Part shown: piece by piece, positions 15,131 to 52,528 of the stretch
How the letters are laid out: each line of letters opens with the position of its first letter
Numbering within the stretch: the stretch's first letter is position 1
Assembly: GCA_016281555.1 (NCBI GenBank)
Contig: JAEEIV010000032.1
Coordinates: forward strand, 311 to 64,310
Length of the DNA stretch: 64,000 nt
DNA from: Lachnospiraceae bacterium
Lineage (GTDB): Bacteria > Bacillota > Clostridia > Lachnospirales > Lachnospiraceae
Direction: 5' to 3'
Program-made: the position numbers and the translations under genes
Notes under the pieces: model-generated
Database searches by the model: none
The model's input: only the letters and a program-made list of their open reading frames with translations
What the model was told of the DNA's origin: nothing

Positions 15131-15136
15131 CGCGGT

Positions 15137-32283: not shown

Positions 32284-32312
32284 TTGAAAACGGCTGAAAA
32301 AAATGCTACTAT
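32284..32312 (+). promoter_or_regulatory. Candidate sigma-A promoter with an extended -10
   Basis: TTGAAA (32284-32289), 17-nt spacer, TGcTACTAT (-10 at 32307-32312), about 60 nt upstream of the ATG at 32374. Confidence 0.55.
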
Positions 32313-32373
32313 TTAGCATAGGAATATATAGAGGGGATTGCTGTGCCCTGATCTGAATAAGGAGAAATCGGCA

Positions 32374-33933
32374 ATGAGGAAAGTTTATCCACTTTTATTG
32401 GCTGTGTTTTTGCTCATGACGGCGCTTCTTTCCGCATGTAACGGCGGCGAAACGAAGGCACCCGAAGATCCTTCTCAAAACGGGACGGAAGCTACGCCCG
32501 GAACGGGCAGCGAAAATGAATCGGAACCGGAAAGCGTTCCGGTATCGTCGGGCGCATTCCAGGTCGGCTATGCGAGAGAGAACATCACGCCGGACGCGAC
32601 CGAAGGACTTCCGCTCGCCGGCTACGGAAACACGGACAAGCGTTTGTCCACCGGTTTCCTGGATTACATCTACATGACCTGCATCGCATTTCAGGATGAA
32701 GAGGGCAACCGCCTCGTATGGTTCACTCAGGACCTCATCACTTCGAACGGAACCGTCGTGGCGAAGATGAAGGAGATGGTCTCCGAGGCGACGGGGATCG
32801 ACATTGACCACATCCTGGTGACCGCGACGCATACCCATTCGAACGTCGACCAGGGACAGACGAAATTCAACAGCGTAAACAAATACATCAGCTTCATTCA
32901 GGAGGCCGGCGTGAAGGCGGCGCTCGCGGCGCTGGATGACCTTCATCCCGCTTCGTTCAACTGGAGCACGGCGGATCTGACCGGCTACAATTTCGTCCGG
33001 CATTATTTCACCGACGTGGAAGGGGATCCGTCGGTCGGCGACAACCACGGCGCGCTCGCGGAAGGCAAAGTCGTCCGGCATACCACGGAAGCCAATCACA
33101 TCATGTACATCCTTGAAATCGACCGGGAAGACGCGAAAGACATTCTGCTGACGACATGGAGAGCGCATCCGACCATTACGGGCGGACTCACGAAGGGCGA
33201 GATCTCTGCGGATTTCGTCGGATACGTCCGGAACGAGATCGAAAAGAAGACGGAGTATCTCTTCGCCTATTATCAGGGTGATGCCGGAAACATGAACCCG
33301 CGGACGAGACTCAGCGCGGACGTGGAATTCAATCCCCCGAAGGACGTTAAGGAATACGGCAAACAGGTTTCGGAACTCATTCTCAAAGGACTGGAGGAGA
33401 ACGGGCTCACGCCGATCAAGACCGGTACGATCTCGACGATCAACACGACGTTTACCGGAGAAATCAATCACGACTGGGATTCGCTGGCCGGAATCGGGCA
33501 GGAACTCAGGGACTACTGGAACCAGACGAGCGATTATCAGCACGTCTATAAGGAAGGCGCGAAGTATAAGATCATCGACAGTCTCGGACACGAGCAGTAC
33601 ATCCAGAGCCCGTATCATGCGGGCGCCATCGCATCCCGCGCAGGCATGGGAAAGACTTCCGACGTCGAGATCCACGCGACGAGGATCGGCGATTTCGCGT
33701 TCATCAACGCGCCGTTTGAACTTTTTGACACGAACGGAGATTTCGTCCGCGAGAATTCGCCGTCGCCGTATACCATGGTGATCGGTTATTCGAACAACGG
33801 GAACGGATACCTGCCTTCCCAGTTTGCGTACGAGTATGATTGCTACGAGTCGAATACGACGAGATTCAAGCCCGGTACCGGCGAGCTTCTGGCATCCAAG
33901 TTTGTGGAATTGTTAAACGAATTGTACAAATAA
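32374..33933 (+). CDS. Neutral/alkaline-ceramidase-like lipoprotein (function unknown)
   Basis: The internal start gives MRKVYPLLLAVFLLMTALLSAC (lipobox) and then a Ser/Glu/Pro linker. GYARENITPD..PLAGYGN and ATHTHSN resemble the ceramidase_alk N-terminal domain zinc motifs. Confidence 0.6.
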   Translation: MRKVYPLLLAVFLLMTALLSACNGGETKAPEDPSQNGTEATPGTGSENESEPESVPVSSGAFQVGYARENITPDATEGLPLAGYGNTDKRLSTGFLDYIYMTCIAFQDEEGNRLVWFTQDLITSNGTVVAKMKEMVSEATGIDIDHILVTATHTHSNVDQGQTKFNSVNKYISFIQEAGVKAALAALDDLHPASFNWSTADLTGYNFVRHYFTDVEGDPSVGDNHGALAEGKVVRHTTEANHIMYILEIDREDAKDILLTTWRAHPTITGGLTKGEISADFVGYVRNEIEKKTEYLFAYYQGDAGNMNPRTRLSADVEFNPPKDVKEYGKQVSELILKGLEENGLTPIKTGTISTINTTFTGEINHDWDSLAGIGQELRDYWNQTSDYQHVYKEGAKYKIIDSLGHEQYIQSPYHAGAIASRAGMGKTSDVEIHATRIGDFAFINAPFELFDTNGDFVRENSPSPYTMVIGYSNNGNGYLPSQFAYEYDCYESNTTRFKPGTGELLASKFVELLNELYK

Positions 33934-33939
33934 GCAGCG

Positions 33940-33978
33940 ACCGTTTCCGGCCGGCATGAGCCGGGCGGAAACGGTTTT
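33940..33978 (+). terminator. Intrinsic terminator
   Basis: ACCGTTTCCG..(GCCGGCATGAGCCGGG)..CGGAAACGGT followed by TTTT: a perfect 10-bp outer stem. Confidence 0.75.
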
Positions 33979-34011
33979 CGCTATATCATCAGTCATTCAG
34001 GAGAGAACGAA

Positions 34012-35508
34012 ATGAAAATCGGTTGGGGAAGAAGAGAGTATTCAATGAACGTGCCGGTCAACATCTGCGGCCAGATGTACATGCGCGTCTGTGAAGGCAT
34101 TCTGGATCCGCTTTACATGACGGCAATGGTCGTCGAAGGAGAGGAGACGGTGGTCTTCGTGTCGATCGATCTCGTGGCGCCGAACGGCGAACTCCATCAG
34201 GGGATCATTGACAAGGTGCGGGAAAAGTATCCTGAGATCCCGGAAACAAACTTTATTTTCAACGTCACGCATACTCATACGTCGATGCAGCTCTGGCCGG
34301 GCGCCGAGAAGACCCCGGACGGAAAGGAACTCTATCCGCCGGTCAAGGCGAGAGAGCACGCGATCGAAAAGGGCGCGGAAGCCGTCATCGAGGCGTATGA
34401 GAACCGGAAGGAAGCAGGCATCGCTTACGGATACGGGTACGCGGTCGTCGCGCATTCCCGCCGCGTCTTATATTATGAAGATATGGGAGTCGCGAATCCG
34501 GCGAGCGCAGCGCCGAACGGTCATGCGATCATGTATGGAAACACGAACCGCCCGCAGTTCGAGGGATATGAAGCAGGCGCGGATCATTTCGTGAACCTGA
34601 TGTATACATTCGACGAGCATGACAAACTGACCGGCATCGTTGTGAACGTGCCCTGTCCGAGCCAGACTTCCGAGCACCTGAAGGTCCTTTCGGCGGACTA
34701 CTGGGCGCAGGTCCGGGAACTCATCGCGAAGGAATTCGGACCGGACGTCTATGTGCTTCCGCAGTGTGCGGCTGCCGGAGACCTTTCTCCGAGGATCCTG
34801 CATTACAAGGGCGCGCAGCAGCGCAGAATGCATTTGAAATACGGTCTGGATTATGACTGGACGATCCCGACGCTTGACGACGTGGACAATTTTGCGAGAA
34901 AAGCCATGGCGGAGCGGAAGGACATCGCGGAGCGGATCACCGCCGCAGTCAAGGAAGTGTACGCGTGGGCGTCCAAGGACATTCAGAGAGATCTGCCTGT
35001 CCGTCATATTAAAGTGGATATGCCGGTCACCCGCCGCTACGTTTCGGACGAAGAGGCGGAATGGTGCAGGGAGAACATCAAGTATCTTGAGGCGAACCTG
35101 CCGGATCCCGCGACCTGCTCTGCGGAAGAGTATCGCGTGAAGCGGTCCACCTTTGATTCGTACGCAGCGAGGAACCGCCGCGCGATCGCGAGAAATGAAA
35201 ACGAGACGGAAGGCGAGAAGGTCGAGACCGTCGTGCACGTGACCAGGATCGGCGACATTGCGTTTGCGACGAACCGCTTCGAACTGTACATGGATTACAT
35301 GCATCAGATCCAGGCGAGAAGCCCGTTCATCCAGACGTTTGTCATCCAGATGTGCGGCGAGGGCGCCGGCGGGTATCTCCCGACGGAGCGCGGCAAGGAG
35401 AACAAGGGATATTCCGCATCGATCTTCTGCAATACGGTCGGACCGGAAGGCGGAAGAGACCTCGTGGAAGGAACGTTGGAATTATTGAATCAGCTTGCTG
35501 AGAAATAA
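34012..35508 (+). CDS. Neutral/alkaline-ceramidase-like protein, cytoplasmic paralogue (no signal peptide)
   Basis: KIGWGRREYSMNVPVNICGQMY, LYMTAMVVEG and NVTHTHTS show the same architecture as the 32374 gene. A C-terminal YSASIF..GPEGG region is present. Confidence 0.55.
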   Translation: MKIGWGRREYSMNVPVNICGQMYMRVCEGILDPLYMTAMVVEGEETVVFVSIDLVAPNGELHQGIIDKVREKYPEIPETNFIFNVTHTHTSMQLWPGAEKTPDGKELYPPVKAREHAIEKGAEAVIEAYENRKEAGIAYGYGYAVVAHSRRVLYYEDMGVANPASAAPNGHAIMYGNTNRPQFEGYEAGADHFVNLMYTFDEHDKLTGIVVNVPCPSQTSEHLKVLSADYWAQVRELIAKEFGPDVYVLPQCAAAGDLSPRILHYKGAQQRRMHLKYGLDYDWTIPTLDDVDNFARKAMAERKDIAERITAAVKEVYAWASKDIQRDLPVRHIKVDMPVTRRYVSDEEAEWCRENIKYLEANLPDPATCSAEEYRVKRSTFDSYAARNRRAIARNENETEGEKVETVVHVTRIGDIAFATNRFELYMDYMHQIQARSPFIQTFVIQMCGEGAGGYLPTERGKENKGYSASIFCNTVGPEGGRDLVEGTLELLNQLAEK

Positions 35509-35593
35509 TACGGTAAACAAGAAAACAGTCTAAACGAAATGCAGGCGGAATGATCCGAAAGGAATCGTTCCGGTCAAACGAAGGGAGACAAGC

Positions 35594-38500
35594 ATGAACG
35601 AGGACAAAAAGAAAAAGAAGAAAGGGTTGATCATCGGCATCATCATCGGTGCCGTGGCCCTCGCCGGACTCGGCGTCGGGGCAGCTCTCCTGTTCGGCGG
35701 AAAAGGCGGGCAGGGAGAACCGACGGCAGCGCCGACGGAAAACGTTGAGGATCCATCTGTCGATGCATCCGAGACCGAACCGGAACCGGTGCCTCCGGAA
35801 GGAAGTCTGATCGATCAGCTCTTCTGGAACGTCGAGAAGAACATCTATGCCGGTCAGACGGAAATCGGCACCTCTTCGAGAACGCCGGACAAGGACGACG
35901 GCTACTATCACATTTCGTTCGCGGTGAACGGACGAACCGTGGAGCGTCGTGTCGCGGACAAGAAGATCGTGAACCAGATCGACGGTCTGGACCTCATGGG
36001 TCTCGTCTTTGACGATAAGAACATCGTCATCGGCGTCCGCAGGATCGAGGAATTCACCGGCGGTTTTGCACACAAGGGATTCTACGTGGACCATATCGAA
36101 GAAGACGGAACGATCGTTCTGAATTCCTCCGCTTCCCTGAACGGTATGGAATTCGAACTCGTGGTCCCCGATGACGCGAAGATCTTCGACGTTTCCGGAA
36201 ACGTGAATCCGATCGGTTTCGTTCTGAAACCGTCCGATCTCCATCAGGGCGACCGGGTGTATACGGTTCAGGACTACGACGGAAACATCATTGCCGCGTA
36301 CGTGACCGAGAGATACGTGAAGAACAAGGTCTTCTGGAACATCGAACGGATGTGGGACGATGCAATCGCGTCGACGAAACGTCTTCCGGACGTGGACGGC
36401 GTCTATACGTTCCTGATGGCCTGCGAAGGCGAACAGGTCACAGTCAAGACGAAGTCTCTTGCAGTCGCGAACAAGATCGACCAGCAGGCGGCGAAGGTCG
36501 TCAGCCTGAAGTTCGATAAGGACGGCTATGCGACAGAATATCTCAGCGCTTACCCCGGAGGTTCGTTCGGTTCGTGGTATCACGTCACCGAACTGAACGG
36601 CAAGAAGATCGTGGCGCATAAGTTCATTGCGGCCGCCGATACCGGCACGACGCAGGAAGGCACGCTCGCGGACGACTATGAATGCTACGACGTTTCGGGT
36701 GTCGGCGAATTCGTCGGCGTCAAATATCAGCTGAAGGAGTGGGACAAGGTCCACTGCGTGAAGAACGCGAAGGGCGAGGTCTCCATCGTCTTCGTCGTCG
36801 GCCGTACCGATGATCAGGCTCAGATCTACTGGAATATGAAGCGTGAGACGAACTCTCAGCGCGAGACGACGAAAACCCCGGATGCGAACGGTTATTACTG
36901 GTTCGAACTGGCCAGTAACGGCTCCGTGAAACGGTATAAGACCAATGACAAGAAACTGGCGGATGCCCTTGATTATGAGCCCGCGCGTGTCTACGCCCTT
37001 CGGGTGGAAGGCGACACGATCGTGAAGAAGCTGGGAACCGACGCCGTGACCGGCGGCGGCTCGACCGCATCCTGGTTCACGGTCATTGAGAAGAAGAATG
37101 CGAAGGAATACGTGACGAAGAAGATCATTCAGGCGTCGGATACCGGTAAGGTCACGCCGATCACCCTGTCCGACGACGTGAAGATCTACAACGTCTCTGA
37201 TAACAAAATGTACGACGATCACGCCGGCGAGCTTTTAAAGCAGCTGAACATCGGCGACCGGGTGCACTGCCTGACGAACGTGGCGGGCGAAGTCTCTTAC
37301 GTCATGCTGGTCAACCGTGCGATGGGCGGCGAGATCTACTGGAACCTGTCCAGAAAGTATGACTCGAAGAATAAAGTGACTACCCGGAAACCGGATGCGG
37401 ACGGCTGGTACGTCTTCCAGATGGCGACCGGCGGAAAGCAGGTCACGTTAAAGACGAAGAGCAAGGATCTCGCAACGGAGGTCGATTCGTACATTGCGAA
37501 CTGCATGTGCCTCGACGTGGCGGGCGACGTCATCGTCAGAGCCGGCTCCACGACCTCGAAGCTGAAGACTTCGGGCGGTACGACGGCGTCCTGGTTCGAC
37601 GTCCTGTCCATCTCCGGAAATCAGTTCCACGCCGAGAAACTCATCGAGGCGACAGATACCGGGCAAAAGAGAGACGTTCCGATCGCGGCGGACGTGGAAG
37701 TCTACAACGTCGGTGCGGAATACACGGTCAAGGGTGAAAAGACTGACCTGAGAGTCGGCGACCGTGTGCACGTGCTCCTGAACGGCGACAAGCAGGCCTC
37801 GATCATCTTCGTCGTGAACCGGCCCGGACGGAAGATGTCCGGCACCTGTCCGGAATGCGGCAAGACCGTGACGTGGGTCTCCTTCAACGGTTCTTACGCA
37901 AGCTCCGGCGAAGTGAAGGCGACGGAGAGCTTTAATGGAAACGACGTGGAGTGCCAGGTGCTCCATTACTTCCTTGACGGCGACCGGAACCTGAACGGCC
38001 AGTCGCAATCCCTGAAGAACACGATCGTTCACTTCAACATGAACGGTCATACGCTGATGTCTGCGGAAGACAACCGCGGTCTGACGCTGTTTAGTGAGTA
38101 TTCGGTCCTGAAGATCTTCGACCTGTCCGACAAGAAGGGCGGCGTGATCAAGTCTCAGAACGGCAAGGGCATGGGCGCGGACACCGGCGCAACCGAGATC
38201 GGCGGCGTGCTCTGGCTCCGCTACGGTACGAACAAACTGTATATTAAGGATACGACGCTTGACTTCAGCCTGATGGATCAGGGCATGACGAACGGCGCGA
38301 TCTATGCACCGGCGGACTCGATCGTTGAACTCGAGAACGTGACGATCAAGGGCGCGAAGAACGCATTGACCGGCGCGGCGATCTATTCAAACGGCAATCT
38401 GACGTTGAAGAACGTGACGATCACCGGCGGCGTAAGCGGTTCCGGCGGATCGGTCTACGTGAACACCGGTACGTTCACGATCGACGGCAATACGTCCGTG

Positions 38501-41500
38501 AAGGGCGGCAAACTCTCCGACGGTACGCCCGCGAACATTTATCTCGCGAACGGCATGAAGATCAAGACGGCCTCCGGCATCACGTCGGCGGCAGGTTCCG
38601 TGTATTTCACGACCGCTGCGGGCGGCGTCTTCACCGAGAATGAGTTCGAAGCTTACAAGGACGTCTTCAAGTGCGACGTTCCGGCCACGATCGACGTGAA
38701 CGCGAACAAGGCTTTGACGGTCACTTATGAATTGAGCGGTCTGAAACTCTCAGAAGAGACGCTGACGCTCGAGCAGGGCGGCGTGCAGAGAGTCGTCGTG
38801 AATCCGGTTCCGGCTTCCGCGGCGCTCGGAACGCTTACCTATGAAAGTTCTGATCCGACGAAGGTGTCGGTCGACGAAAACGGTAACGTGAAGGCAATCG
38901 CCGTCACGGGAGACGCCGGCGTGACGATCACGGTAAAGACTTCCGACGGTAAATTCTCGGCGGAGGCAAAGGTCGTGGTCAAGGCGGCATCCGCGAATGC
39001 GCATACGCACGTCGTAGGTACGCTTGAGGATATCAATGCGGCGACCGGAGAGAAGGTGCTCTTCGAAGCGTTTGACGCGAAGAAGGTCACTTCCGGTAAG
39101 GGCGGCACGTTCTATATGTATCTGACGGAAGACGTCGAACTCGGCGGAACGCTCGTGATCCCGGACACCAATTTGGTCCTCTGTCTGAACGGACATAAGA
39201 TCCGGAAGGCAAACGGCCGTGTCATTCAGAACAACGGGGCGTCAACGGCAGCGGAGATCAAGATCTGCGACTGCTCGGCGAGACAGACCGGTCAGGTGGT
39301 CGGCGGTTCTCTGGATCAGGGCGGCGTGCTCTGGATCACGACCCCGAGTGTAGTGCTTTCGATCTACGGCGGCACCTATACGAGCGAGCGTCCGTCGACG
39401 CATGCATTCGGCGGTGCAGTCGTCAATGCAGTCTCGTTCAACATGTACGGCGGCACGATCACCGGCGGTAAAATGAACTACGGCTCCAGAGAGAGCACTA
39501 GTTCTTACTCAGCCGGCGGCGCGAACGTCTATGCCACCAACTTCAATATGTACGGAGGCACGATCGAAAACGGCATGATCTTCGTGGAATGCGACAAGTC
39601 TTCCAACGGACAGCCTGTTTACGCGTTCGGCGCGAACGTCTATGCGGTCAACATGACGATGTCGGGCGGCACGATCAAGGGCGGCCAGTTAAAGATCGCG
39701 GACGGCTTAAGCCATACGAGATGGGCTTCCGGCGCGAACGTGTACACGAGAAACATCACGATGACCGGCGGTAGCATTGAAGACGGCGTATCCGATACGT
39801 TCTGCGGAAACCTGCACATTACGGGCAATTCCGAGATCACAGGCGGAACGATCAAAAACGGTACCTCCTATGAATACGGCGCGAACATTGCCATCGACAA
39901 TACGTCCGCGACGGTCCGGATCGGCGGCAATGCCGTGATCGAAGGCGGTAATTCCACGAACGGCGGCGGCGGCAACATCCGTGTGAACGGCATCTTGTTC
40001 GTGGAAGGCGATGCGGTCATCAAGGACGGCACGGCGAAGACGAACGGCGGTAACATCTGGGTCCAGAAGGGTTCGGCGACCATTAACGGCGGCACGATCT
40101 CCGGCGGTTCCGCGGGAGCGGGCGGCAACATCCGTTCCGAGCAGGCGCTCACGATGAACGGCGGTGTCATTGAAGACGCGAAGTCGGCTCAGAACATCTT
40201 CCTGAATATTACGAACGGCGGCGTTCCGGCCATCTTCACGATGACCGGCGGCACGATCCGGAATACGTCCGGCCCTGCGAACATCGTCGTGAACGGCGGT
40301 GCGAACGGTTCCGGCGTGGCTTACGTGAACGGCGAATTCCATATGTCGGGCGGCGAGATCTATCAGGATGCTTCTCACAGCGGACGGAACGTGGAACTCG
40401 GCGGCGCGATGTACATGAGCGGCGGTAAGATCTACGGCGGCAAGGCAACGGGCGGCGACGGCGGAAACATCTTCTTGTTCAACGGCACTTCGAGAACCAC
40501 AGCCCCGAGCGGCGTGACGGAAAAGGCGAAGTACATGCCGTACCTGAACATTTCCAGCGGCGAAGTCTACAGCGGCACGGCATCTGCCAATGCGGGCAAC
40601 ATCAACATTCAGGGCGGCGCGATCGTTGAGATCTCCGGCGGCATGATCTACGGCGGCGATGCGACCGGCGGTGACATGTCCATCCCGAACATGATCGCAA
40701 ACAGCGGTGCAACGCTGACCGTCACCGGCGGCACCATCACCTGCGAGGAGAGCCCGTCCATTCCGAGAAATTCGATCTGGATCTCGAAGGCGGCTACGGT
40801 TTCGATCGAGAATGCAAAGATCACGCGCGTCTGGGCTCAGCCCGACACGCCGGCATTCATCAAGAGCGGTACGTTCTTTGCCGAACCTGCTGCGGCGTAC
40901 GTCGTAAGCGGCAACCTCATCAAGGAACTCGGCACGCCGGAAACCGAAACGGTCGGAGAGACGGATTATACCTTCAAGTATCAGGTCATTTCGAATGAAG
41001 ACGTCGTGAAAGTGACGCTTCCTGCCACGGCGAATGCGACGATCGGAACGGACATTACACTGACTGCTACGGTGAACCCGGGCAGAGTGGACATCACTTC
41101 GGTCGAATGGACCACCGGCGACGCGACGGTCGCAACGGTCGCGAAGGATTCTTCGAACCAGTACAAGGCGACGGTCACCCCGGTTGCGGAAGGAAACGCC
41201 GACATTACGATCACGATCAACGGCGAGTTTACGGCGACGACCACGATCACTGTTGCGGCAGCTGAGGCGGCGCATCAGTCGCACTGCATCTGCGGTGACG
41301 GCACGATCACGACCGGCAGCCATGCGCATGCGGTCGTGGATTGGACCGAGTGGACGACGGCGGGCAAGCTCCCGACGGCCGCGGACTGCACCGATTCTGT
41401 GGCGCACGACAGCGACGGACATTATTACTTCTATCTGAACAATGCGGATTCGAACGGGGTCATTGATCTCGGAACGAACATCTACTATCCGTACGGCGGT

Positions 41501-44500
41501 GACGACAAGGCCACGGACGGCAAGAAAATCGTAATCTGCTTAAACGGCAAGACCGTGAGATCGAGTGCTCACCGCGCGATCCGGATGCGGAACAACACCG
41601 ATGCGGACTTCACGGTCACGGCTTGCCGGAGTTCCGGTAAGATCGAGACCGTCACGACCGGCACCGGCGGCGACCAGGGTTCGTTCCTGTGGCTGACCTC
41701 CACGAACGGCAAGTTCACCCTGTACAACGGCACGCTCGACATGAGCGCCCGGTCCGTTATTTATAACGGCGGCGGCGCGTCGCTCGATTTCACCGGCACA
41801 GGCACGACGTTTGCAATGTACGGCGGCACGATCAAGGGCGGCAACTATGAACGTACGAGCGGCACTTCGAACGGCATCACGGTCTTCTTCGGAAGCGGCA
41901 CGTTCGGTGAATTCTACGGCGGCACGATCTACGGCGGCACCAGTGAAACCCGGTGCGGCGCTGCGATTTATCCGTCCGGAACCTCGGTCGTGAACATTTA
42001 CGACGGATTCGAGATTCTGAACGGTCACGCAAACTATGCCGGTAACATTTACACGAGCGGTTCCGCGAAACTGACGATCGGAAAAGCAACTATTTCCGGC
42101 GGCAGCGCGAACAATCAGGGTGGCAACTTCTATATTGAAGGCGGCGAAACGATCCTGAACGGGACGATCGTTACCGGCGGCACGTCCGGCGGCGGTGGCA
42201 ACATCTTGCTTCAGGCGGGAACTCTGACGATCAATGAAGATACGCTGATCGAAAACGGTTCCGTGCCTGGCACGGGCACCGCATGGAAGTACGGCGGCAA
42301 CATCGCATTGGCCGGCGGCACCACACTGACCATGAACGGCGGTACCGTAAAGGGCGGCAATACGAACTACGGCGGCAGCATTTACATCGGCACCGCGAAG
42401 TTCGTCATGAACGGCGGCACGATCGACGGCGGTGCGGCGAACCAGTCCGGCGGTAACTTCTTCCTGGACGGCGCGGCTGAACTCATCGTGAACGACGGTA
42501 CGATCACGAACGGCGCTTCCGGCGACGTCGGCGGAAACATCATAACGAAGGGCAAGAACCTCACGATCAACGGCGGCGAGATTTCGAACGGCGTTGCAGG
42601 CACGTCTTCTGCAGGAAAGAGCGGCGGCAACATTTTGCTGAATGGTTCCGGTAAGATGACCATCAACGGCGGTAAGATCTTCGGCGGAACGGCCTATGAC
42701 GCAGGCGGCAACATCTGCATCCAGGGTACGTCCGAATCCGTGATCACCGGCGGTGAGATCTATGACGGCAAGGCGGGATCGGGCGCGTCGGCGGCTTCTT
42801 CGAGAGCGAACATTTTCGTAAACGCGAGCGGCGGCACGATCAAGATGATCGGCGGCACGGTGAAGGGCGGATTCGAGCTCATGGGCATCAAGTCCCTTGA
42901 ACTCGCCGGAACGCCGGTCATTCACGACGGCGAGTCCGGTCTTTGGATCTACAACGAGCATACGTCGATCACGGCGCAGAACATCAAAATCGGAACGACG
43001 ATCTACGGAACCGATTACGAGCATCTTGAGGACGGCGCGGACATCTACATTGCCGGCTACAACCGGAACGGAAATGCGAACCTGACCGTTGCGGATCCGA
43101 CGCTTCTTGCGACGGGCGCTAACTTCGAGGATGCGGGCTTCTTCAGCGCAAAGGATTACACGGTCGTGGCGCTTGATGACGACAATGACGGCACCGAGGA
43201 TACGCTGCATATGATGACCGGTCATCAGCATTACGTCTTCGGCAGCAGCAAAGCGGCGAAAGAGTCGGATGATTACAAGACTGCAACGATTCAGACTTTT
43301 GAAGAATTCGACGCGGCAGCGCTTACAGAGTTTAAAGATGCGGAAACGGATATCTACATGTTCCTCAAAGAGGACGTGGATCTCGAGAAAACGATCGTTT
43401 TAGGAAACAACATCCATCTGCACCTTTGCCTGAACGGACATAAACTCAGTCTTCCGACGTCACGCGTGCTCCAGCCGGCGAGCAGTTCTGCGGGCTACAC
43501 CCGCGGCAGCGTCAGCTTCTGTGACTGCACGCCAAACGGCGAAGTGGTCGGCGGGTCGAAAGATCAGGGCGGCACGATTTGGGGCAACAGCCTGATGAAG
43601 ATCACGATCTTCGGCGGAACGTTCACGAACGCGAGAGAAGCCACGCATCCGCAGGGCGGCGCGGTCATCATGGCCGGCGTGCTCGACATGTACGGCGGCA
43701 CTGTGAAAGACGGCGTCCTGCAGTACGGCGCCCGTACGCTTGACAGTGCGAGCGCGACCCCGGCGCAGAGAGGCGGCGCGAACATCAATGCGTCTACGTT
43801 CAATATGTATGACGGCACGGTGGAAGGCGGAAAGATCATCGTCAACGCCGACAAGTCGCCGATCAAGAATTCCACGGAGACGAAGCCGGTTTACGCGTTC
43901 GGCGGAAACATTTACGCGAGCAGGTTTAACCTGTACGGCGGAACGATCAAAGACGGCAAGATCTTCTTCAAGGAAGGCGTCACCCGTACCTGGTCTTCCG
44001 GCGGCAATATCTGGACGCAGAACTTCCATATGTACGACGGCACCATTGAGAACGGCTTCGCGGATGCCAACGGCGGAAACATCCATTTCGCTGGCGGCAA
44101 TTCCGTGATCGAAGGCGGAACGATCTCGGGAGGCGTCGCGAATAACGGCTACGGCGGAAACATCGCGATGGACGGCGGGAAAGTGAAGGTCACGAACTGC
44201 GTGATCACCGGCGGTATTTCGAGAGGCCTCGGCGGAAACTTCCGTGTCGGCGCAAATGCGGAACTGACGATCGGTACCGCGGCAGACGATACGGTGGAGA
44301 TCTCCGGTGGTCAGTCCGGTATCCAGTTCACATTGGATTCGGAGTACTCTCCTTCGGAAACCTACACGATCATGGGTGCAAGCGGCGGCAACATCGGCCT
44401 GGAAGCGAACACCAGCCAGAACCGGATCGGCACGATCATCATGAACGGCGGCACGGTGAAGGACGGCAAGGCGTTCCAGGGCAACGGCGGCAACGTTTAC

Positions 44501-45295
44501 ATGGCGGATAAGTGCGTGTTCACTTTGAACAACGGAACGGTTTCCGGCGGTATCGCGGACAATAACTCGGTCAACTCGATCGGACGCGGCGGAAACGTGT
44601 TCGTCGGTACAAGCGCGGTCTTTACAATGAACGACGGTACCGTTGAAAACGGTCAGGCACTTCGTACCGGTGATTCAGGAGTGGACGATGCTGGCTTCGG
44701 CGGCAACGTCGTCGTCATGACGTCCACAGACGCGAATTCCGGTTTCTACCTGAACGGCGGCACGGTGAAGGGCGGCAGCGCCCCGAGCGGCGGCAACGTC
44801 CGGATCAATAACAACGCGAAGATGGTCATGACCGGCGGCACGATCGAAAGTTCGGCGACCGGCGACAACGTCTTCATCAACATCACCGGCAGTCTCACAA
44901 TGTCCGACGGCATCATCCGGAACGCGGCTGCCGTGAACGTGACGATCAACGGCATTGCTTCCTCCAAGGGCTTATTCACGATGACCGGCGGTACCGTGTA
45001 TCTGGCCGGAGACGGCACGAACATGAATGTGTACGGCACCTTCAATATGAGCGGCGAATCCGCGGTCGTCGGAGCGAAAGTGAATTATGGCATCAACGCG
45101 GCAAACTGCTCCATCACCGGCGGTTACGTCTCGTCCCTCTTTGGACAGCCGAAGGCCAATGCTTCCGGCGGCTATTTCGTGACCGCGCCGGGTGCAGACT
45201 TCATAGCCTCGGGTGCGACGGTTCAGACACTTGGCACTCCGGTCCAAAAGACCATTGAAGGTACGGATTTCACGTTCGGGTATCAACTTCAGTAA
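35594..45295 (+). CDS. Giant (3,233 aa) N-terminally membrane-anchored surface protein: 4 tandem ~165-170-aa repeats, 4 beta-helix-like GGxI/GGN repeat modules and 2 Big_2-like Ig domains
   Basis: Uninterrupted ORF with RBS AGGGAG. N-terminus is MNEDKKKKKKGLIIGIIIGAVALAGLGVGAALLF (signal anchor). Dozens of hxGG[TEKS]IxxG...GGN[IVF] units follow, plus Big_2-like segments at 38741-38983 and 41006-41254. A strong terminator lies downstream. Confidence 0.85.
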   Translation: MNEDKKKKKKGLIIGIIIGAVALAGLGVGAALLFGGKGGQGEPTAAPTENVEDPSVDASETEPEPVPPEGSLIDQLFWNVEKNIYAGQTEIGTSSRTPDKDDGYYHISFAVNGRTVERRVADKKIVNQIDGLDLMGLVFDDKNIVIGVRRIEEFTGGFAHKGFYVDHIEEDGTIVLNSSASLNGMEFELVVPDDAKIFDVSGNVNPIGFVLKPSDLHQGDRVYTVQDYDGNIIAAYVTERYVKNKVFWNIERMWDDAIASTKRLPDVDGVYTFLMACEGEQVTVKTKSLAVANKIDQQAAKVVSLKFDKDGYATEYLSAYPGGSFGSWYHVTELNGKKIVAHKFIAAADTGTTQEGTLADDYECYDVSGVGEFVGVKYQLKEWDKVHCVKNAKGEVSIVFVVGRTDDQAQIYWNMKRETNSQRETTKTPDANGYYWFELASNGSVKRYKTNDKKLADALDYEPARVYALRVEGDTIVKKLGTDAVTGGGSTASWFTVIEKKNAKEYVTKKIIQASDTGKVTPITLSDDVKIYNVSDNKMYDDHAGELLKQLNIGDRVHCLTNVAGEVSYVMLVNRAMGGEIYWNLSRKYDSKNKVTTRKPDADGWYVFQMATGGKQVTLKTKSKDLATEVDSYIANCMCLDVAGDVIVRAGSTTSKLKTSGGTTASWFDVLSISGNQFHAEKLIEATDTGQKRDVPIAADVEVYNVGAEYTVKGEKTDLRVGDRVHVLLNGDKQASIIFVVNRPGRKMSGTCPECGKTVTWVSFNGSYASSGEVKATESFNGNDVECQVLHYFLDGDRNLNGQSQSLKNTIVHFNMNGHTLMSAEDNRGLTLFSEYSVLKIFDLSDKKGGVIKSQNGKGMGADTGATEIGGVLWLRYGTNKLYIKDTTLDFSLMDQGMTNGAIYAPADSIVELENVTIKGAKNALTGAAIYSNGNLTLKNVTITGGVSGSGGSVYVNTGTFTIDGNTSVKGGKLSDGTPANIYLANGMKIKTASGITSAAGSVYFTTAAGGVFTENEFEAYKDVFKCDVPATIDVNANKALTVTYELSGLKLSEETLTLEQGGVQRVVVNPVPASAALGTLTYESSDPTKVSVDENGNVKAIAVTGDAGVTITVKTSDGKFSAEAKVVVKAASANAHTHVVGTLEDINAATGEKVLFEAFDAKKVTSGKGGTFYMYLTEDVELGGTLVIPDTNLVLCLNGHKIRKANGRVIQNNGASTAAEIKICDCSARQTGQVVGGSLDQGGVLWITTPSVVLSIYGGTYTSERPSTHAFGGAVVNAVSFNMYGGTITGGKMNYGSRESTSSYSAGGANVYATNFNMYGGTIENGMIFVECDKSSNGQPVYAFGANVYAVNMTMSGGTIKGGQLKIADGLSHTRWASGANVYTRNITMTGGSIEDGVSDTFCGNLHITGNSEITGGTIKNGTSYEYGANIAIDNTSATVRIGGNAVIEGGNSTNGGGGNIRVNGILFVEGDAVIKDGTAKTNGGNIWVQKGSATINGGTISGGSAGAGGNIRSEQALTMNGGVIEDAKSAQNIFLNITNGGVPAIFTMTGGTIRNTSGPANIVVNGGANGSGVAYVNGEFHMSGGEIYQDASHSGRNVELGGAMYMSGGKIYGGKATGGDGGNIFLFNGTSRTTAPSGVTEKAKYMPYLNISSGEVYSGTASANAGNINIQGGAIVEISGGMIYGGDATGGDMSIPNMIANSGATLTVTGGTITCEESPSIPRNSIWISKAATVSIENAKITRVWAQPDTPAFIKSGTFFAEPAAAYVVSGNLIKELGTPETETVGETDYTFKYQVISNEDVVKVTLPATANATIGTDITLTATVNPGRVDITSVEWTTGDATVATVAKDSSNQYKATVTPVAEGNADITITINGEFTATTTITVAAAEAAHQSHCICGDGTITTGSHAHAVVDWTEWTTAGKLPTAADCTDSVAHDSDGHYYFYLNNADSNGVIDLGTNIYYPYGGDDKATDGKKIVICLNGKTVRSSAHRAIRMRNNTDADFTVTACRSSGKIETVTTGTGGDQGSFLWLTSTNGKFTLYNGTLDMSARSVIYNGGGASLDFTGTGTTFAMYGGTIKGGNYERTSGTSNGITVFFGSGTFGEFYGGTIYGGTSETRCGAAIYPSGTSVVNIYDGFEILNGHANYAGNIYTSGSAKLTIGKATISGGSANNQGGNFYIEGGETILNGTIVTGGTSGGGGNILLQAGTLTINEDTLIENGSVPGTGTAWKYGGNIALAGGTTLTMNGGTVKGGNTNYGGSIYIGTAKFVMNGGTIDGGAANQSGGNFFLDGAAELIVNDGTITNGASGDVGGNIITKGKNLTINGGEISNGVAGTSSAGKSGGNILLNGSGKMTINGGKIFGGTAYDAGGNICIQGTSESVITGGEIYDGKAGSGASAASSRANIFVNASGGTIKMIGGTVKGGFELMGIKSLELAGTPVIHDGESGLWIYNEHTSITAQNIKIGTTIYGTDYEHLEDGADIYIAGYNRNGNANLTVADPTLLATGANFEDAGFFSAKDYTVVALDDDNDGTEDTLHMMTGHQHYVFGSSKAAKESDDYKTATIQTFEEFDAAALTEFKDAETDIYMFLKEDVDLEKTIVLGNNIHLHLCLNGHKLSLPTSRVLQPASSSAGYTRGSVSFCDCTPNGEVVGGSKDQGGTIWGNSLMKITIFGGTFTNAREATHPQGGAVIMAGVLDMYGGTVKDGVLQYGARTLDSASATPAQRGGANINASTFNMYDGTVEGGKIIVNADKSPIKNSTETKPVYAFGGNIYASRFNLYGGTIKDGKIFFKEGVTRTWSSGGNIWTQNFHMYDGTIENGFADANGGNIHFAGGNSVIEGGTISGGVANNGYGGNIAMDGGKVKVTNCVITGGISRGLGGNFRVGANAELTIGTAADDTVEISGGQSGIQFTLDSEYSPSETYTIMGASGGNIGLEANTSQNRIGTIIMNGGTVKDGKAFQGNGGNVYMADKCVFTLNNGTVSGGIADNNSVNSIGRGGNVFVGTSAVFTMNDGTVENGQALRTGDSGVDDAGFGGNVVVMTSTDANSGFYLNGGTVKGGSAPSGGNVRINNNAKMVMTGGTIESSATGDNVFINITGSLTMSDGIIRNAAAVNVTINGIASSKGLFTMTGGTVYLAGDGTNMNVYGTFNMSGESAVVGAKVNYGINAANCSITGGYVSSLFGQPKANASGGYFVTAPGADFIASGATVQTLGTPVQKTIEGTDFTFGYQLQ
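35822..37830 (+). repeat. Four tandem protein-level repeats (~495-510 nt each) in the N-terminal region of the giant protein
   Basis: Units start at about 35822 (FWNVEKNIY), 36332 (FWNIERMWD), 36827 (YWNMKRETN) and 37337 (YWNLSRKYD). Each contains TPDxDG[YW]Y..KTKS/KTND..SW[FY]xV..DTG..[YC][ND]VS..GDRVH..[VI]xFVV. Confidence 0.8.
39002..40990 (+). repeat. Beta-helix module B, paralogous to module D (43223-45295) of the same protein
   Basis: Colinear similarity between B and D: HTHV.. vs HQHY..; YMYLTEDVELGGTLVI..LCLNGHKI vs YMFLKEDVDLEKTIVL..LCLNGHKL; ICDCS..QVVGGSLDQGGVLW vs FCDCT..EVVGGSKDQGGTIW; PVYAFGANVYA vs PVYAFGGNIYA. Both end in LGTP..G.D[YF]TF.YQ. Confidence 0.8.
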
Positions 45296-45348
45296 ACCGA
45301 TATTGAATGAGGTCATCTGAAGAAACGTTCCACGTTTCTTGAACGGGA

Positions 45349-45387
45349 GAGGGGTTGCTGCATAAAAGCAGCAACCCCTCGTCTTGT
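45349..45387 (+). terminator. Intrinsic terminator after the giant gene
   Basis: GAGGGGTTGCTGC-ATAAAA-GCAGCAACCCCTC is a perfect 13-bp stem followed by GTCTTGT. A second small hairpin (AGAAACG-TTCCA-CGTTTCT) lies at about 45320-45340. Confidence 0.8.
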
Positions 45388-52331: not shown

Positions 52332-52365
52332 TGCACCTCCGTATGACGTGAGATATTTAAAAAAC

Positions 52366-52394
52366 ATTATATCATTTCAACGGAAGATTATCAA
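52366..52394 (-). promoter_or_regulatory. Candidate sigma-A promoter (minus strand) for the CapA-like gene
   Basis: The minus strand reads TTGATA (52394-52389), 17-nt spacer, TGaTATAAT (-10 at 52371-52366). This is near consensus with an extended -10. Confidence 0.65.
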
Positions 52395-52454
52395 GTTTAG
52401 AAACGGATTTGCTGCGGGACCGGGTTCGGAACGGAAAAACGTTTCAGGGAAGGC

Positions 52455-52483
52455 TTGCCACAGCGGAAAAGGTTTGGTATAGT
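52455..52483 (+). promoter_or_regulatory. Candidate sigma-A promoter for the divergent GH gene
   Basis: TTGCCA (52455-52460), 17-nt spacer, TATAGT (52478-52483), about 45 nt upstream of the ATG at 52529. Confidence 0.5.
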
Positions 52484-52528
52484 GAACGAAAGAGAAGACC
52501 GGAGCAAAACCGGAAGAGGAGGCCTGCA

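What the first reader, a model, noticed from the sequence alone, without database searches (positions are those of the whole stretch)
35594..45295. 9.7-kb gene for a 3,233-aa, N-terminally anchored, four-module beta-helix surface protein of unassigned function
Seen in the sequence: one uninterrupted ORF, by far the largest in the window.
- It has a good RBS and a Lys-rich N-terminus with a single hydrophobic helix (a signal anchor), followed by a Pro/Glu-rich linker.
- Next come four ~165-170-aa tandem repeats.
- Four large modules follow: A ~37847-38740, B ~39002-40990, C ~41273-43215 and D ~43223-45295. Each is built from dozens of ~20-25-aa units of the type h-x-GG-[TEKS]-I-x-x-G ... GGN-[IVF].
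- Two Big_2-like Ig domains sit after modules A and B.
- I found no LPXTG, SLH, choline-binding or other C-terminal wall-anchor motif.
- Modules B and D are clear paralogues, and both end in LGTP-x(5-7)-G-x-D[YF]TF-x-YQ.
- The gene has its own strong terminator.

Established knowledge: GGxI-type repeats of this periodicity form right-handed parallel beta-helices in Pmp-like, autotransporter-like and pectate-lyase-like proteins.

Inference: this is a giant adhesin or glycan-binding fibre held only by an N-terminal anchor. Neither the architecture as a whole nor the N-terminal repeats match anything I can name.
Basis: partly seen in the sequence, partly recalled or inferred. Interest (0 to 1): 0.72.

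Follow-up and report, generated by a model that had tools for sequence, protein, structure and literature searches.

The report
Giant membrane-anchored beta-helix surface fibre
This is a real 9.7-kb gene for a 337-kDa cell-surface fibre of a gut Clostridia-type bacterium, one of a large unnamed family built on a previously undescribed stalk domain and usually encoded next to a ceramidase-like lipoprotein; its function has never been tested.

Summary
ORF 35594-45295 is uninterrupted and encodes 3,233 aa. It has one N-terminal hydrophobic anchor, four ~165-aa repeats, four Gly-rich modules and two Big_2 domains. There is no C-terminal wall anchor, and a strong hairpin follows the stop codon.

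What the tools add:
- The gene is not an orphan. The repeat profile finds 516 cluster representatives. The 175 top-scoring members in hand are nearly all 1-4.6-kaa proteins with the same plan: N-terminal anchor, then usually 4-5 repeats starting near residue 49.
- The repeat has no Pfam model. It folds very confidently (pLDDT 96.5) into an all-beta domain with no convincing match among solved or viral structures.
- Module B models as a right-handed parallel beta-helix. Its closest structures are pertactin and other autotransporter passengers. No Pmp, Beta_helix or pectate-lyase HMM matches.
- Each module starts with a Cys/His-rich cap (CxxC…W or HxH, then LCLNGH).
- A neutral-ceramidase-like lipoprotein gene (cerA, 32338-33933) lies next to the family gene in 11 of 15 independent loci, once as eight tandem copies. 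Its zinc ligands are conserved.

The best reading is an adhesin-like surface fibre that works together with a membrane-tethered amidase. The function is inferred, not shown.

The parts
32284..32312 (+). Sigma-70-like promoter candidate upstream of cerA (TTGAAA-17-TACTAT with a TG extension).
   Evidence: This is a consensus match only. No promoter-like site on the + strand was found between cerB and the giant gene.
32338..33933 (+). cerA, a lipoprotein of the neutral-ceramidase superfamily. It is the conserved partner of the giant gene. The true start is probably Met13 at 32374, followed by a lipobox ...LLSAC.
   Evidence: - Pfam Ceramidase_alk scores 34.9 bits, above the 32.1-bit cut-off.
- The family profile A5 matches human (4wgk, E 4.7e-15) and P. 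aeruginosa (2zws, E 2.3e-14) neutral ceramidases.
- H165/H167, H277, E461 and Y491 are conserved.
- Homologues are adjacent to the family gene in 11 of 15 loci.
33936..33982 (+). Strong hairpin directly after the cerA stop, overlapping a short U run (UUUUCGCU) in its 3' arm. It may be a terminator or attenuator between cerA and cerB.
   Evidence: dG -35.3 kcal/mol, z -6.75. The consensus scan did not call it.
34012..35508 (+). cerB, a divergent ceramidase-like paralogue with no signal peptide, so probably cytoplasmic. The position equivalent to His277 is not conserved.
   Evidence: - Pfam Ceramidase_alk scores 27.2 bits, below the cut-off.
- hhalign against the CerA profile gives probability 99.4%.
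- Orthologues are 67% identical in L017, in the same order cerA-cerB-giant, and 52% identical in L003.
35594..35695 (+). Start codon, Lys-rich cytoplasmic tail (aa 1-10) and a single hydrophobic helix (aa 11-34), read as an uncleaved signal-anchor.
   Evidence: An N-terminal hydrophobic segment is present in 174 of 175 family members.
35696..35815 (+). Acidic Pro/Glu-rich linker (aa 35-74).
   Evidence: pI 4.05.
35816..37828 (+). Four tandem copies of a ~165-aa all-beta domain with no family assignment. In nucleotides they are 35816-36325, 36326-36820, 36821-37330 and 37331-37828. Proposed membrane-proximal stalk.
   Evidence: - Repeat boundaries and identities.
- AF2 model of repeat 3: pLDDT 96.5, pTM 0.89.
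- No Pfam match.
- No PDB or BFVD structural match with E <= 1e-3.
- The profile finds 516 cluster representatives.
- Each repeat position has its own orthologues in relatives.
37829..38728 (+). Module A (aa 746-1045). It opens with the junction motif C752-P-E-C755-G-K-x-V-T-W, followed by H791, H813 and MNGH, then a short Gly-rich repeat region.
   Evidence: - Searches show the motif and the invariance of C752/C755/H791/H813 in the two closest relatives, P0001 and P0002.
- A C..C...W motif follows the last repeat in 143 of 175 family members.
- Module A itself was not modelled.
38729..38983 (+). Big_2 Ig-like domain 1 (aa 1046-1130).
   Evidence: 39.7 bits, E 4.6e-10.
38984..40996 (+). Module B (aa 1131-1801). 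It has an HxH...LCLNGH...CDC cap, then a right-handed parallel beta-helix, and ends in LGTPETETVGETDYTFKYQ.
   Evidence: - AF2: pLDDT 80.3, pTM 0.78, about 55 short strands.
- Foldseek top hits are pertactin 1dab and 2iou_G (probability 1.00, E 2-3e-3), followed by Hbp, EspC, Ag43 and phage tailspikes.
40997..41260 (+). Big_2 Ig-like domain 2 (aa 1802-1889).
   Evidence: 23.2 bits against a 22.8-bit cut-off, so marginal. Weaker hits to other Ig-like families fall on the same stretch.
41261..43195 (+). Module C (aa 1890-2534). It has an HxxHCIC...HAH...ICLNGK cap and GGN-type coils.
   Evidence: It was not modelled. Its relationship to B and D rests on sequence (28-38% identity).
43196..45295 (+). 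Module D (aa 2535-3233) plus the stop codon. It is a paralogue of module B, with an HQH...LCLNGH...CDC cap, and ends in LGTPVQKTIEGTDFTFGYQLQ*.
45343..45387 (+). Terminator-like GC-rich hairpin after the giant gene.
   Evidence: dG -34.1 kcal/mol, z -7.3. The U-tract is weak and the scan did not call it.

Best explanation
The ORF is a genuine gene for a type-II membrane protein (N-terminus inside the cell) that forms a long, modular cell-surface fibre.

Proposed layout, from the membrane outwards:
1. A Lys-rich tail and one transmembrane helix hold the protein in the cytoplasmic membrane.
2. An acidic linker and four copies of a previously undescribed ~165-aa all-beta domain form a membrane-proximal stalk. 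I infer that this stalk carries the rest of the protein through the cell wall.
3. Four right-handed beta-helix rods follow. Each starts with a Cys/His-rich cap, and two are followed by Big_2 Ig domains. These rods project outwards and provide the working surface, most likely for binding (adhesin-like) rather than catalysis.

The gene is one member of a large unannotated family from gut Clostridia (order Oscillospirales). It is part of a conserved cassette with one or more neutral-ceramidase-like zinc amidases: CerA, a lipoprotein, and here also CerB.

Shown: the gene, its domain plan, the folds, the existence of the family, and the gene neighbourhood.

Inferred: the membrane topology, the wall-spanning role of the stalk, the binding function, and any functional coupling with CerA.
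For: Gene and topology
- The ORF is intact, with an RBS and a conserved start.
- There is a single N-terminal hydrophobic segment with a positively charged flank. There is no C-terminal anchor.

Family
- The full-length search gave 30 giant homologues.
- The repeat profile gave 516 representatives, 453 of them at E <= 1e-10.
- Of the 175 top-scoring members in hand, 174 have the N-terminal hydrophobic segment. Their first repeat starts at a median of residue 49. 160 have 4 or 5 repeats, and none has a C-terminal LPXTG.

Stalk domain
- The AF2 model is very confident (pLDDT 96.5) and has no known relative.
- Repeat 1 of the query matches repeat 1 of relatives best (32-55% identity, against 23-28% to its own sister repeats). 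The array is therefore old and its order is conserved.

Beta-helix
- The module B model is closest to pertactin and to the Hbp, EspC and Ag43 passenger domains.

Conservation gradient against the closest relative, P0001
- Anchor, stalk and module A are 58-67% identical.
- Module B is 42%, C 35% and D 34% identical, with many coil-sized indels.
- This is the pattern expected for an exposed, fast-evolving tip on a conserved base.

Cassette
- A cerA homologue is adjacent in the window and in L001, L002 (twice), L003, L004, L005, L006/L007, L008, L013 (eight tandem copies), L016 and L017.
- In L016 and L017 the housekeeping genes that flank the window's cassette are absent, so the cassette is kept as a unit.
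- The CerA zinc ligands are conserved.
Against: - No binding or surface-localisation data exist.
- The Foldseek E-values for the beta-helix are weak (best 2.4e-3, TM 0.35-0.49). The model rests on a 13-sequence alignment, and several segments have low pLDDT.
- Only module B was modelled. Modules A, C and D are assigned by sequence similarity.
- The stalk domains are not basic (pI 4.8-8.5) and resemble no known wall-binding module, so the wall-spanning role is only a geometric argument.
- A lipoprotein sits under the wall, far from the distal rods, so a direct mechanical link between CerA and the fibre tip is not obvious.
- cerA is missing within 6 kb of the family gene in 4 of 15 loci. A distant cerA homologue occurs without the fibre gene.
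- A strong hairpin separates cerA from cerB, so co-transcription of all three genes is not established.
Confidence: 0.6

Rival explanations
1. The beta-helix modules are enzymes, that is polysaccharide lyases, hydrolases or depolymerases like PL6 and GH28 enzymes or phage tailspikes. The protein would then be a surface-anchored glycan-degrading machine in a nutrient-acquisition locus.
For: - The right-handed beta-helix is the fold of many carbohydrate-active enzymes.
- PL6 alginate lyases and tailspike depolymerases appear in the Foldseek list.
- Two related loci (L008, L012) carry a DeoR regulator, a large solute-binding protein and two ABC permeases directly upstream of the family gene. That layout resembles Gram-positive polysaccharide-utilisation loci.
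- A hydrolase (CerA) is co-encoded.
Against: - No Pfam or NCBIfam model for a lyase, a hydrolase, Beta_helix, NosD or Pectate_lyase hits any module, even at E <= 5.
- Lyases and tailspikes score far worse (E 0.04 to >1, probability <= 0.35) than pertactin (probability 1.00).
- The distal modules diverge fast and gain or lose coils. That is unusual for catalytic domains.
- The window's own locus has no ABC transporter or regulator next to the gene.
Confidence: 0.15
2. The protein is mainly structural. It would form an envelope coat or mediate self-association between cells (Ag43-like aggregation or an S-layer-like layer) rather than recognise a foreign ligand.
For: - Ag43 and the S-layer protein RsaA appear among the weak structural matches.
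- Some related genomes carry several giant family genes in tandem (L005, L011) or two cassettes (L002). This is compatible with an abundant envelope component.
Against: - These matches are very weak (E >= 1).
- There are no SLH or other S-layer anchoring domains.
- Strong divergence of the distal modules between close relatives fits ligand or immune pressure better than a self-assembling lattice.
Confidence: 0.12
3. The fibre and the ceramidase-like enzymes form a lipid-harvesting apparatus. The fibre would capture host membranes, milk-fat or mucosal lipids, or sphingolipid-rich vesicles from Bacteroidota. The CerA lipoproteins would then cleave the N-acyl (ceramide-type) amide bonds at the cell surface.
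For: - The cassette is conserved across loci in which CerA is only 31-65% identical.
- The CerA catalytic and zinc residues are intact.
- cerA is amplified to eight tandem paralogues upstream of one family gene, as is often seen for substrate-diversified acquisition enzymes.
Against: - The substrate is entirely hypothetical.
- CerA lacks the C-terminal domain of characterised neutral ceramidases (one search shows only N-terminal and active-site segments aligned).
- No lipid-binding domain is detectable in the fibre.
- CerA would be under the wall, away from the fibre tip.
- 4 of 15 loci lack cerA nearby.
Confidence: 0.1
4. The ORF is an assembly artefact or a decaying pseudogene made of collapsed or expanded repeats.
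For: The gene is very long and repetitive at the protein level. The exact protein is not on record in the gene-position index.
Against: - There is no stop or frameshift across 9.7 kb.
- The DNA repeats are short and divergent.
- A relative with the same four-module order exists on an independent contig, and two further relatives are colinear through module A.
- A CerA protein 97% identical to the window's is found in another data set.
Confidence: 0.02

Closest known systems
Type Va autotransporter passenger domains (Bordetella pertactin P.69; E. coli Hbp, EspC, Pet, Ag43)
   Same: They share the right-handed parallel beta-helix rod that acts as an extended adhesive or scaffold surface. These are the best Foldseek matches to module B (pertactin probability 1.00).
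   Different: - This protein has no C-terminal beta-barrel translocator. I presume there is no outer membrane either, since Oscillospirales are Gram-positive-type; this rests on my own knowledge of the group.
- It is anchored by an N-terminal transmembrane helix.
- It has four helices in series, each with a Cys/His cap.
- There is no sequence-level relationship.
Chlamydial polymorphic membrane proteins (Pmp; Pfam Chlam_PMP PF02415)
   Same: - Both have short Gly-rich tetrapeptide motifs that mark the coils of a beta-helix. Pmps use GGA[ILV] and FxxN (PMC11166332, PMC10715098). This protein uses GGN[IVF] and [FL]xMxGG[TS][IV].
- A few distant homologues of module B carry precomputed PF02415 hits.
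   Different: - PF02415 does not hit this protein, even at E <= 5.
- There are only 3 GGA[ILV] motifs against 21 GGN[IVFL].
- It has no autotransporter barrel.
Serine-rich-repeat protein binding region of Limosilactobacillus reuteri (SRRP-BR, PDB 5nxk)
   Same: It is a Gram-positive gut commensal adhesin whose binding region is a right-handed beta-solenoid. It appears in the Foldseek list (rank 41). That it functions as an adhesin is my own knowledge of the literature.
   Different: - The match is very weak (E 5.6).
- SRRPs are LPXTG-anchored at the C-terminus, are exported by the accessory SecA2/Y2 system, and have Ser-rich stalks. None of these features is present here.
Giant Gram-positive surface fibres anchored by a transmembrane helix (for example Staphylococcus aureus Ebh)
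   Same: A very large protein held by a single membrane-spanning segment, with tandem repeat domains forming a rod. This comparison rests on my own knowledge and was not tested here.
   Different: To my knowledge the Ebh anchor is C-terminal and its repeats are helical bundles. Here the anchor is N-terminal, the stalk is all-beta, and the rods are beta-helices.
Neutral/alkaline ceramidase (Pfam PF04734; human 4wgk, P. aeruginosa 2zws). This comparison is for the partner CerA, not for the fibre.
   Same: The N-terminal catalytic domain is detected above the Pfam cut-off. The HxH, His, Glu and Tyr zinc and catalytic positions are conserved.
   Different: - CerA is 470-530 aa, against 650-690 aa for the ceramidases. 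Only the N-terminal ~230 residues and a ~70-residue active-site segment align with them.
- CerA is a lipoprotein.
- It has no single-sequence match to any PDB entry.
- Its substrate is unknown.

Membership tests
Unnamed family of N-terminally anchored giant proteins with ~165-aa tandem domains (defined here) | An N-terminal hydrophobic anchor followed within about 80 residues by tandem copies of the 165-aa domain. | tested here: met
   The query has 4 copies starting at aa 75. The same plan is seen in 174 of 175 members in hand.
Unnamed family of N-terminally anchored giant proteins with ~165-aa tandem domains (defined here) | A Cys-pair junction motif (C-x2-C...W) after the last repeat, leading into a Gly-rich beta-helix module. 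| tested here: met
   The query has C752-x2-C755...W761. The motif is present in 143 of 175 members.
Chlamydial Pmp / Chlam_PMP repeat proteins (PF02415) | Detection by the PF02415 HMM, that is GGA[ILV] and FxxN repeats. | tested here: not met
   There is no hit at E <= 1 for the whole protein or at E <= 5 per module. There are 3 GGA[ILV] motifs.
Type V autotransporters | A C-terminal beta-barrel translocator domain. | tested here: not met
   No autotransporter Pfam hit. The protein ends in the same LGTP...YQ motif that closes the internal module B.
Type V autotransporters | A right-handed parallel beta-helix passenger. | tested here: met
   The module B model matches pertactin, Hbp and EspC. 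E-values are weak, at 2e-3 or worse.
Pectate-lyase-like / PbH1 beta-helix enzymes (PF13229 Beta_helix, PF05048 NosD, PF12708) | Detection by family HMMs. | tested here: not met
   No hits.
Pectate-lyase-like / PbH1 beta-helix enzymes (PF13229 Beta_helix, PF05048 NosD, PF12708) | Catalytic residues in a groove of the helix. | not testable with these tools
   Model coordinates cannot be inspected, and no reference alignment is available.
Big_2 bacterial Ig-like domain (PF02368) | An HMM score above the gathering cut-off. | tested here: met
   Copy 1 scores 39.7 bits. Copy 2 scores 23.2 bits against a 22.8-bit cut-off, which is marginal.
Sortase-anchored (LPXTG) surface proteins | A C-terminal LPXTG motif followed by a hydrophobic segment and a charged tail. 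| tested here: not met
   The only LPxT[GAN] is LPATA at aa 1809, inside Big_2 copy 2. There is no C-terminal hydrophobic segment.
SLH, choline-binding or other non-covalent wall-binding proteins | The corresponding Pfam repeats. | tested here: not met
   None detected.
Neutral ceramidase superfamily (partner CerA, 32338-33933) | The PF04734 N-terminal domain above the cut-off. | tested here: met
   34.9 bits against a 32.1-bit cut-off. The profile also matches 4wgk and 2zws.
Neutral ceramidase superfamily (partner CerA, 32338-33933) | Zinc ligands (two His, Glu, Tyr) and the catalytic His. | tested here: met
   H165/H167, H277, E461 and Y491 are invariant or nearly so in 42 sequences, and they align with the HTHS, H, E and Y positions of 4wgk. 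The residue roles come from my own knowledge of the human enzyme.
Neutral ceramidase superfamily (partner CerA, 32338-33933) | The C-terminal ceramidase domain. | tested here: not met
   No Pfam hit for it. CerA is about 150 aa shorter than solved ceramidases, and the alignment covers only the N-terminal and active-site segments.
Neutral ceramidase superfamily (partner CerA, 32338-33933) | Ceramide-hydrolysing activity. | not testable with these tools
   This needs an enzyme assay.

The most novel reading that the evidence does not exclude
The cerA-(cerB)-fibre cassette is a previously unrecognised two-part surface system of gut Oscillospirales. One part is a fixed-length stalk of 4-5 copies of a new double-barrel domain. 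This would be a new way for Gram-positive-type bacteria to hold very large proteins from the membrane and pass them through the wall without sortase, SLH or choline-binding modules. The other part is one or more co-encoded ceramidase-like zinc amidase lipoproteins that are functionally tied to the fibre. They might process lipids or N-acyl amides taken from host or neighbouring microbial membranes that the fibre contacts, or they might mature or release the fibre.
Probability: 0.2. Interest if true: 0.8.

Novelty: new variant of a known kind. Interest (0 to 1): 0.55.

Why it matters
Giant surface proteins are among the least understood genes of gut Clostridia. Yet they are the parts of the cell that touch the host, food particles and other microbes.

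This gene gives a clean, complete example of a family with several hundred members that has no name, no Pfam model and no solved structure. It contributes three things:
- a well-defined new domain, the 165-aa stalk unit, which models with very high confidence;
- a recognisable cap motif for the beta-helix modules;
- a testable genetic clue to function, namely the conserved neighbour that looks like an active ceramidase-type amidase.

If the link to a lipid amidase is real, it would connect surface fibres of butyrate-producing-type Clostridia to sphingolipid or N-acyl-amide metabolism in the gut. That area is currently known mainly from Bacteroidota and the host. If the link is not real, the result is still a useful family definition for annotation.

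Tried and rejected
Searches that gave nothing useful
- Pfam and NCBIfam on the whole protein and on each module gave only Big_2. DUF4183, DUF7305 and FliL are sub-threshold noise.
- A PDB sequence search with the whole protein found nothing.
- The module profile A3 against PDB sequences gave only Rhombotarget A at E 1e-3. That protein has no assigned function in the papers found.
- Literature searches found no paper describing this family, its stalk domain or the cerA association.

Hits considered and rejected
- The repeat profile hit the designed propellers Ika8 and Ika4 (E 4e-6 overall, but about 0.08 per domain). I rejected this as a beta-strand pattern match. The AF2 model is not a propeller blade set, and Foldseek finds no propeller with a meaningful score.
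- The best Foldseek hits for the repeat are CusF, HIN-200 and exosome S1/OB subunits (TM 0.24-0.30, or covering only half the domain). I take these as 'two small beta-barrels', not as homology. The BFVD viral library also gave nothing.

- Exact look-ups of the window protein and of P0001 are not on record. Cluster names are empty.
- The search for related loci with the diverse repeat alignment A1 failed for lack of a conserved stretch.
- With the closer alignment A2 it returned only 3 genome loci and 2 metagenome loci. A taxonomic census was therefore not possible.
It was rerun with 13 rows.

Ideas tested without support
- Wall binding by charge: the repeats are not basic.
- A C-terminal toxin or effector domain: the protein ends with the same motif as the internal module B.
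- A prophage or tail-fibre origin: the neighbourhood is made of housekeeping genes.


Full report
**1. The observation**

The ORF at 35594-45295 (+) is real as described. It is 3,233 codons long with no stop and is by far the longest ORF in the window. A GGGAG ribosome-binding site lies 5-6 nt before the ATG. The product is 336.6 kDa, acidic (pI 5.08) and 14.6% glycine.

The only strongly hydrophobic stretch in the protein is residues 11-34. It is preceded by six lysines and followed by an acidic Pro/Glu linker. Self-comparison confirms four ~165-aa repeats at aa 75-745. It also confirms that modules B and D are paralogues and that C is related to both.

Pfam finds only Big_2, twice: aa 1051-1120 strongly and about aa 1813-1884 marginally. 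GGN[IVF] occurs 21 times against 0.87 expected. Both B and D end in LGTP...D[YF]TF.YQ. There is no C-terminal LPXTG, SLH or choline-binding element.

A 19-bp GC-rich hairpin (dG -34.1 kcal/mol, z -7.3) follows the stop codon. Its U-tract is weak, and the simple scan did not call it a terminator.

The coil spacing is mostly 24-37 aa rather than 20-25. The second Big_2 is borderline.

An assembly artefact is unlikely. DNA repeats inside the gene are 31-86 nt long at 60-89% identity, and there is no tandem array.

**2. It belongs to a large unnamed family**

A full-length search returned 30 homologues of 1,846-3,797 aa, almost all without any Pfam domain. What they share is the N-terminal anchor plus the ~165-aa repeats.

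A profile of 50 repeat units (A1) was run against 1.84 billion cluster representatives. It found 516 proteins at E <= 1e-3 and 453 at E <= 1e-10. The top 150 are 940-4,597 aa long with 4-8 copies each.

Among the 175 members in hand:
- 174 have a hydrophobic segment in the first 70 residues;
- the first repeat starts at a median of residue 49;
- 126 have five copies and 34 have four;
- none has a C-terminal LPXTG.

These 175 are the best-scoring hits, so the copy-number distribution is biased towards proteins with many copies.

The closest relative, P0001, has the same four-module order, with four LNGH caps. It is 58-67% identical over the anchor, stalk and module A, but only 42%, 35% and 34% identical over modules B, C and D, with many indels.

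The named relatives come from an Acutalibacteraceae MAG and a Hadza gut 'Eubacteriales' MAG. The window itself is about 57% G+C and carries Firmicute-type housekeeping genes: ScpA/B, ComM-like ChlI, DprA, ThrE, Sua5 and RpiB. I infer that the source is a gut member of the Oscillospirales. This is not shown.

**3. The stalk domain**

No Pfam family matches any of the 50 repeat units at a meaningful level.

A profile search of PDB sequences gave only the designed propellers Ika8 and Ika4. Their per-domain E-values are near 0.1, and I regard the hit as a strand-pattern coincidence.

AlphaFold2 on repeat 3 with the 50-row alignment gave pLDDT 96.5 and pTM 0.89. The model has about ten strands and two short helices.

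Foldseek against the PDB and against BFVD found nothing at E <= 1e-3. The best partial matches (CusF, HIN-200, exosome S1/OB subunits; TM 0.24-0.30) suggest two small beta-barrels in tandem.

The repeats are position-specific. Query repeat 1 is 32-55% identical to repeat 1 of six relatives, but only 23-28% identical to its own repeats 2-4. The array is therefore ancient and ordered, not a recently expanded spacer.

Three facts make a stalk that spans the zone between membrane and wall surface the most economical reading:
- the copy number is constant at 4-5;
- the array always sits directly after the anchor;
- it is better conserved than the distal parts.

This is an inference. The repeats are not basic (pI 4.8-8.5) and resemble no known wall-binding module.

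**4. The modules**

All four modules begin with a related cap:
- a Cys or His pair: C752-x2-C755 in A, HxH in B and D, HxxHCIC...HAH in C;
- an aromatic YYxL stretch;
- the motif [LIV]C[LM]NG[HK];
- in B and D, a CDC triplet.

C752, C755, H791 and H813 are invariant in the alignment of the query with its two closest relatives, P0001 and P0002. A C-x2-C...W motif follows the last stalk repeat in 143 of 175 family members. This looks like a metal site or disulphide site at the start of each helix. That idea was not tested.

Module B was modelled with a 13-row alignment and gave pLDDT 80.3 and pTM 0.78, with about 55 short strands. Its nearest solved structures are pertactin (1dab, 2iou_G; probability 1.00, E 2-3e-3, TM up to 0.49). 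Next come Hbp, EspC, Pet and Ag43, phage tailspikes, PL6 lyases and Rhombotarget A.

The fold claim (right-handed parallel beta-helix) is therefore supported. Chlam_PMP, Beta_helix, NosD and pectate-lyase HMMs all miss, even at E <= 5, and there are only 3 GGA[ILV] motifs. A module-level search finds 73 mostly 500-1,170-aa proteins. A few of them carry PF02415, PF13229, PF05048, Flg_new or SLH, so the module type is used more widely in other architectures.

**5. The conserved neighbour**

Two ORFs lie directly upstream on the same strand.
- cerA (32338-33933) probably starts at Met13 and has a lipobox ...LLSAC. It passes the Pfam Ceramidase_alk cut-off.
- cerB (34012-35508) has no signal peptide and is a divergent paralogue.

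A cerA homologue is adjacent to the family gene in many loci:
- L002 (two cerA-fibre pairs), L003, L004, L005, L006/L007 and L008;
- L001, where only the last 35 residues fit on the contig;
- L016, which is the P0001 contig, where cerA is 65% identical;
- L017, where cerA (62%), cerB (67%) and the fibre gene (61%) stand in the same order as in the window.

Starting from the cerA side, one contig (L013) has eight tandem cerA paralogues followed by a family gene with an anchor and four repeats.

In L016 and L017 none of the window's flanking housekeeping genes is present. It is the cassette that is conserved, not the neighbourhood.

cerA is absent within 6 kb in L009-L012. A distant cerA homologue stands alone beside a prophage. 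That makes 11 of 15 independent loci with the pair.

A 42-sequence CerA profile matches human and Pseudomonas neutral ceramidases (E 4.7e-15 and 2.3e-14). The HTHS, His, Glu and Tyr positions, which to my knowledge bind zinc in the human enzyme, are invariant or nearly so. CerA is therefore probably an active zinc amidase. However, it lacks the C-terminal domain of characterised ceramidases, and its substrate is unknown.

A strong hairpin (dG -35.3 kcal/mol) separates cerA from cerB. No promoter-like or terminator-like site on the + strand lies between cerB and the fibre gene. Co-transcription is plausible for cerB and the fibre gene, and open for cerA.

**6. Mechanism, with shown and inferred steps marked**

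Shown:
- an intact gene;
- a single N-terminal hydrophobic segment with a positively charged N-flank;
- four ordered copies of a new domain;
- a beta-helix fold for module B, with modules A, C and D assigned by sequence relationship;
- two Ig domains;
- a gradient of conservation from base to tip;
- a conserved ceramidase-like partner.

Inferred:
- The helix is an uncleaved signal-anchor with the N-terminus inside. This follows the positive-inside rule, and the hydrophobic stretch is 24 residues long with no obvious cleavage site.
- The stalk crosses the wall.
- The rods project outwards and bind something.
- CerA acts in the same process.

I put 0.6 on 'adhesin-like anchored surface fibre in a functional cassette with CerA'.

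Rivals:
- Enzymatic beta-helix, that is a glycan depolymerase (0.15). The fold supports it, and so do ABC-transporter genes upstream in L008 and L012. All HMM tests and the fast divergence of the modules speak against it.
- A structural or self-associating coat (0.12).
- A lipid-harvesting apparatus with CerA (0.10).
- An artefact (0.02).

**7. Novelty and interest**

The kind of protein is familiar: a giant beta-helical surface protein. What is new is the family definition, the stalk domain without any known relative, the Cys/His cap, the purely N-terminal anchoring, and the conserved ceramidase-like partner. I found no paper describing any of this.

I rate it a new variant of a known kind, with interest 0.55. 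It is solid and well delimited and carries one surprising, testable association. There are no functional data, and gut Clostridia hold many uncharacterised giant surface proteins.

Noticed in passing
window 32338-35508: Two ceramidase-like genes lie directly upstream of the giant gene. cerA is a lipoprotein with conserved zinc ligands. cerB has no signal peptide and has lost the His277 equivalent. The pair is conserved next to family genes in other genomes.
   Followed up: yes
L013 1336-13457, then 13530-17066: Eight tandem cerA paralogues (43-46% identical to the window's CerA) are followed by a fibre-family gene that runs off the contig end.
   Followed up: partly
window 37829-38070, 38984-39300, 41261-41700, 43196-43530: Each beta-helix module starts with a Cys/His-rich cap: CxxC...W or HxH, then LCLNGH, and often CDC. 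A C-x2-C...W motif follows the last stalk repeat in 143 of 175 family members. This may be a metal-binding or disulphide cap.
   Followed up: partly
L005 1-27394; L011 1-15960: Some genomes carry several giant genes in tandem. L005 has products of 4,647, 3,797 and 4,029 aa, with a cerA homologue between the last two. L011 has products of 3,007 and 3,319 aa.
   Followed up: no
L008 234-6651; L012 297-5736: In two related loci a DeoR regulator, a large protein without Pfam hits (547-566 aa, placed like a solute-binding protein) and two ABC permease genes precede the fibre gene. This resembles a Gram-positive nutrient-utilisation locus. In L008 the cerA homologue is called as three short genes, although tblastn aligns it continuously. 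That suggests frameshifts or sequencing errors.
   Followed up: no
window 35342-37222 (-), 39707-41422 (-), 41540-43231 (-): Very long antisense ORFs (626, 571 and 563 aa) lie inside the giant gene. They are most likely a by-product of its G+C-rich, Gly-codon-rich composition rather than genes.
   Followed up: no
window 33936-33982: A strong hairpin (dG -35.3 kcal/mol, z -6.75) lies right after the cerA stop and overlaps a short U run (UUUUCGCU) in its 3' arm. It may be a terminator or attenuator that the consensus scan missed.
   Followed up: partly
window 46691-48274 and 46716-47228: The 527-aa ORF with the Sua5/YrdC domains has those domains only from residue 201 onwards. A 170-aa ORF in another frame overlaps its 5' part, just downstream of ThrE. 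The real Sua5 start is probably later. The 170-aa ORF may be the second ThrE-type subunit.
   Followed up: no
L014 10001-11461; L015 5678-7138: A distant cerA homologue (35% identical) is not next to a fibre gene. It sits beside a prophage (terminase, portal, scaffold genes) and near choline-binding and LRR surface proteins.
   Followed up: no
window 21105-23126, 52409-53662, 51024-52367 (-): Two weak GH5-like (Cellulase) ORFs and a PGA_cap capsule-synthesis-type gene lie elsewhere in the window. They are not adjacent to the cassette.
   Followed up: no
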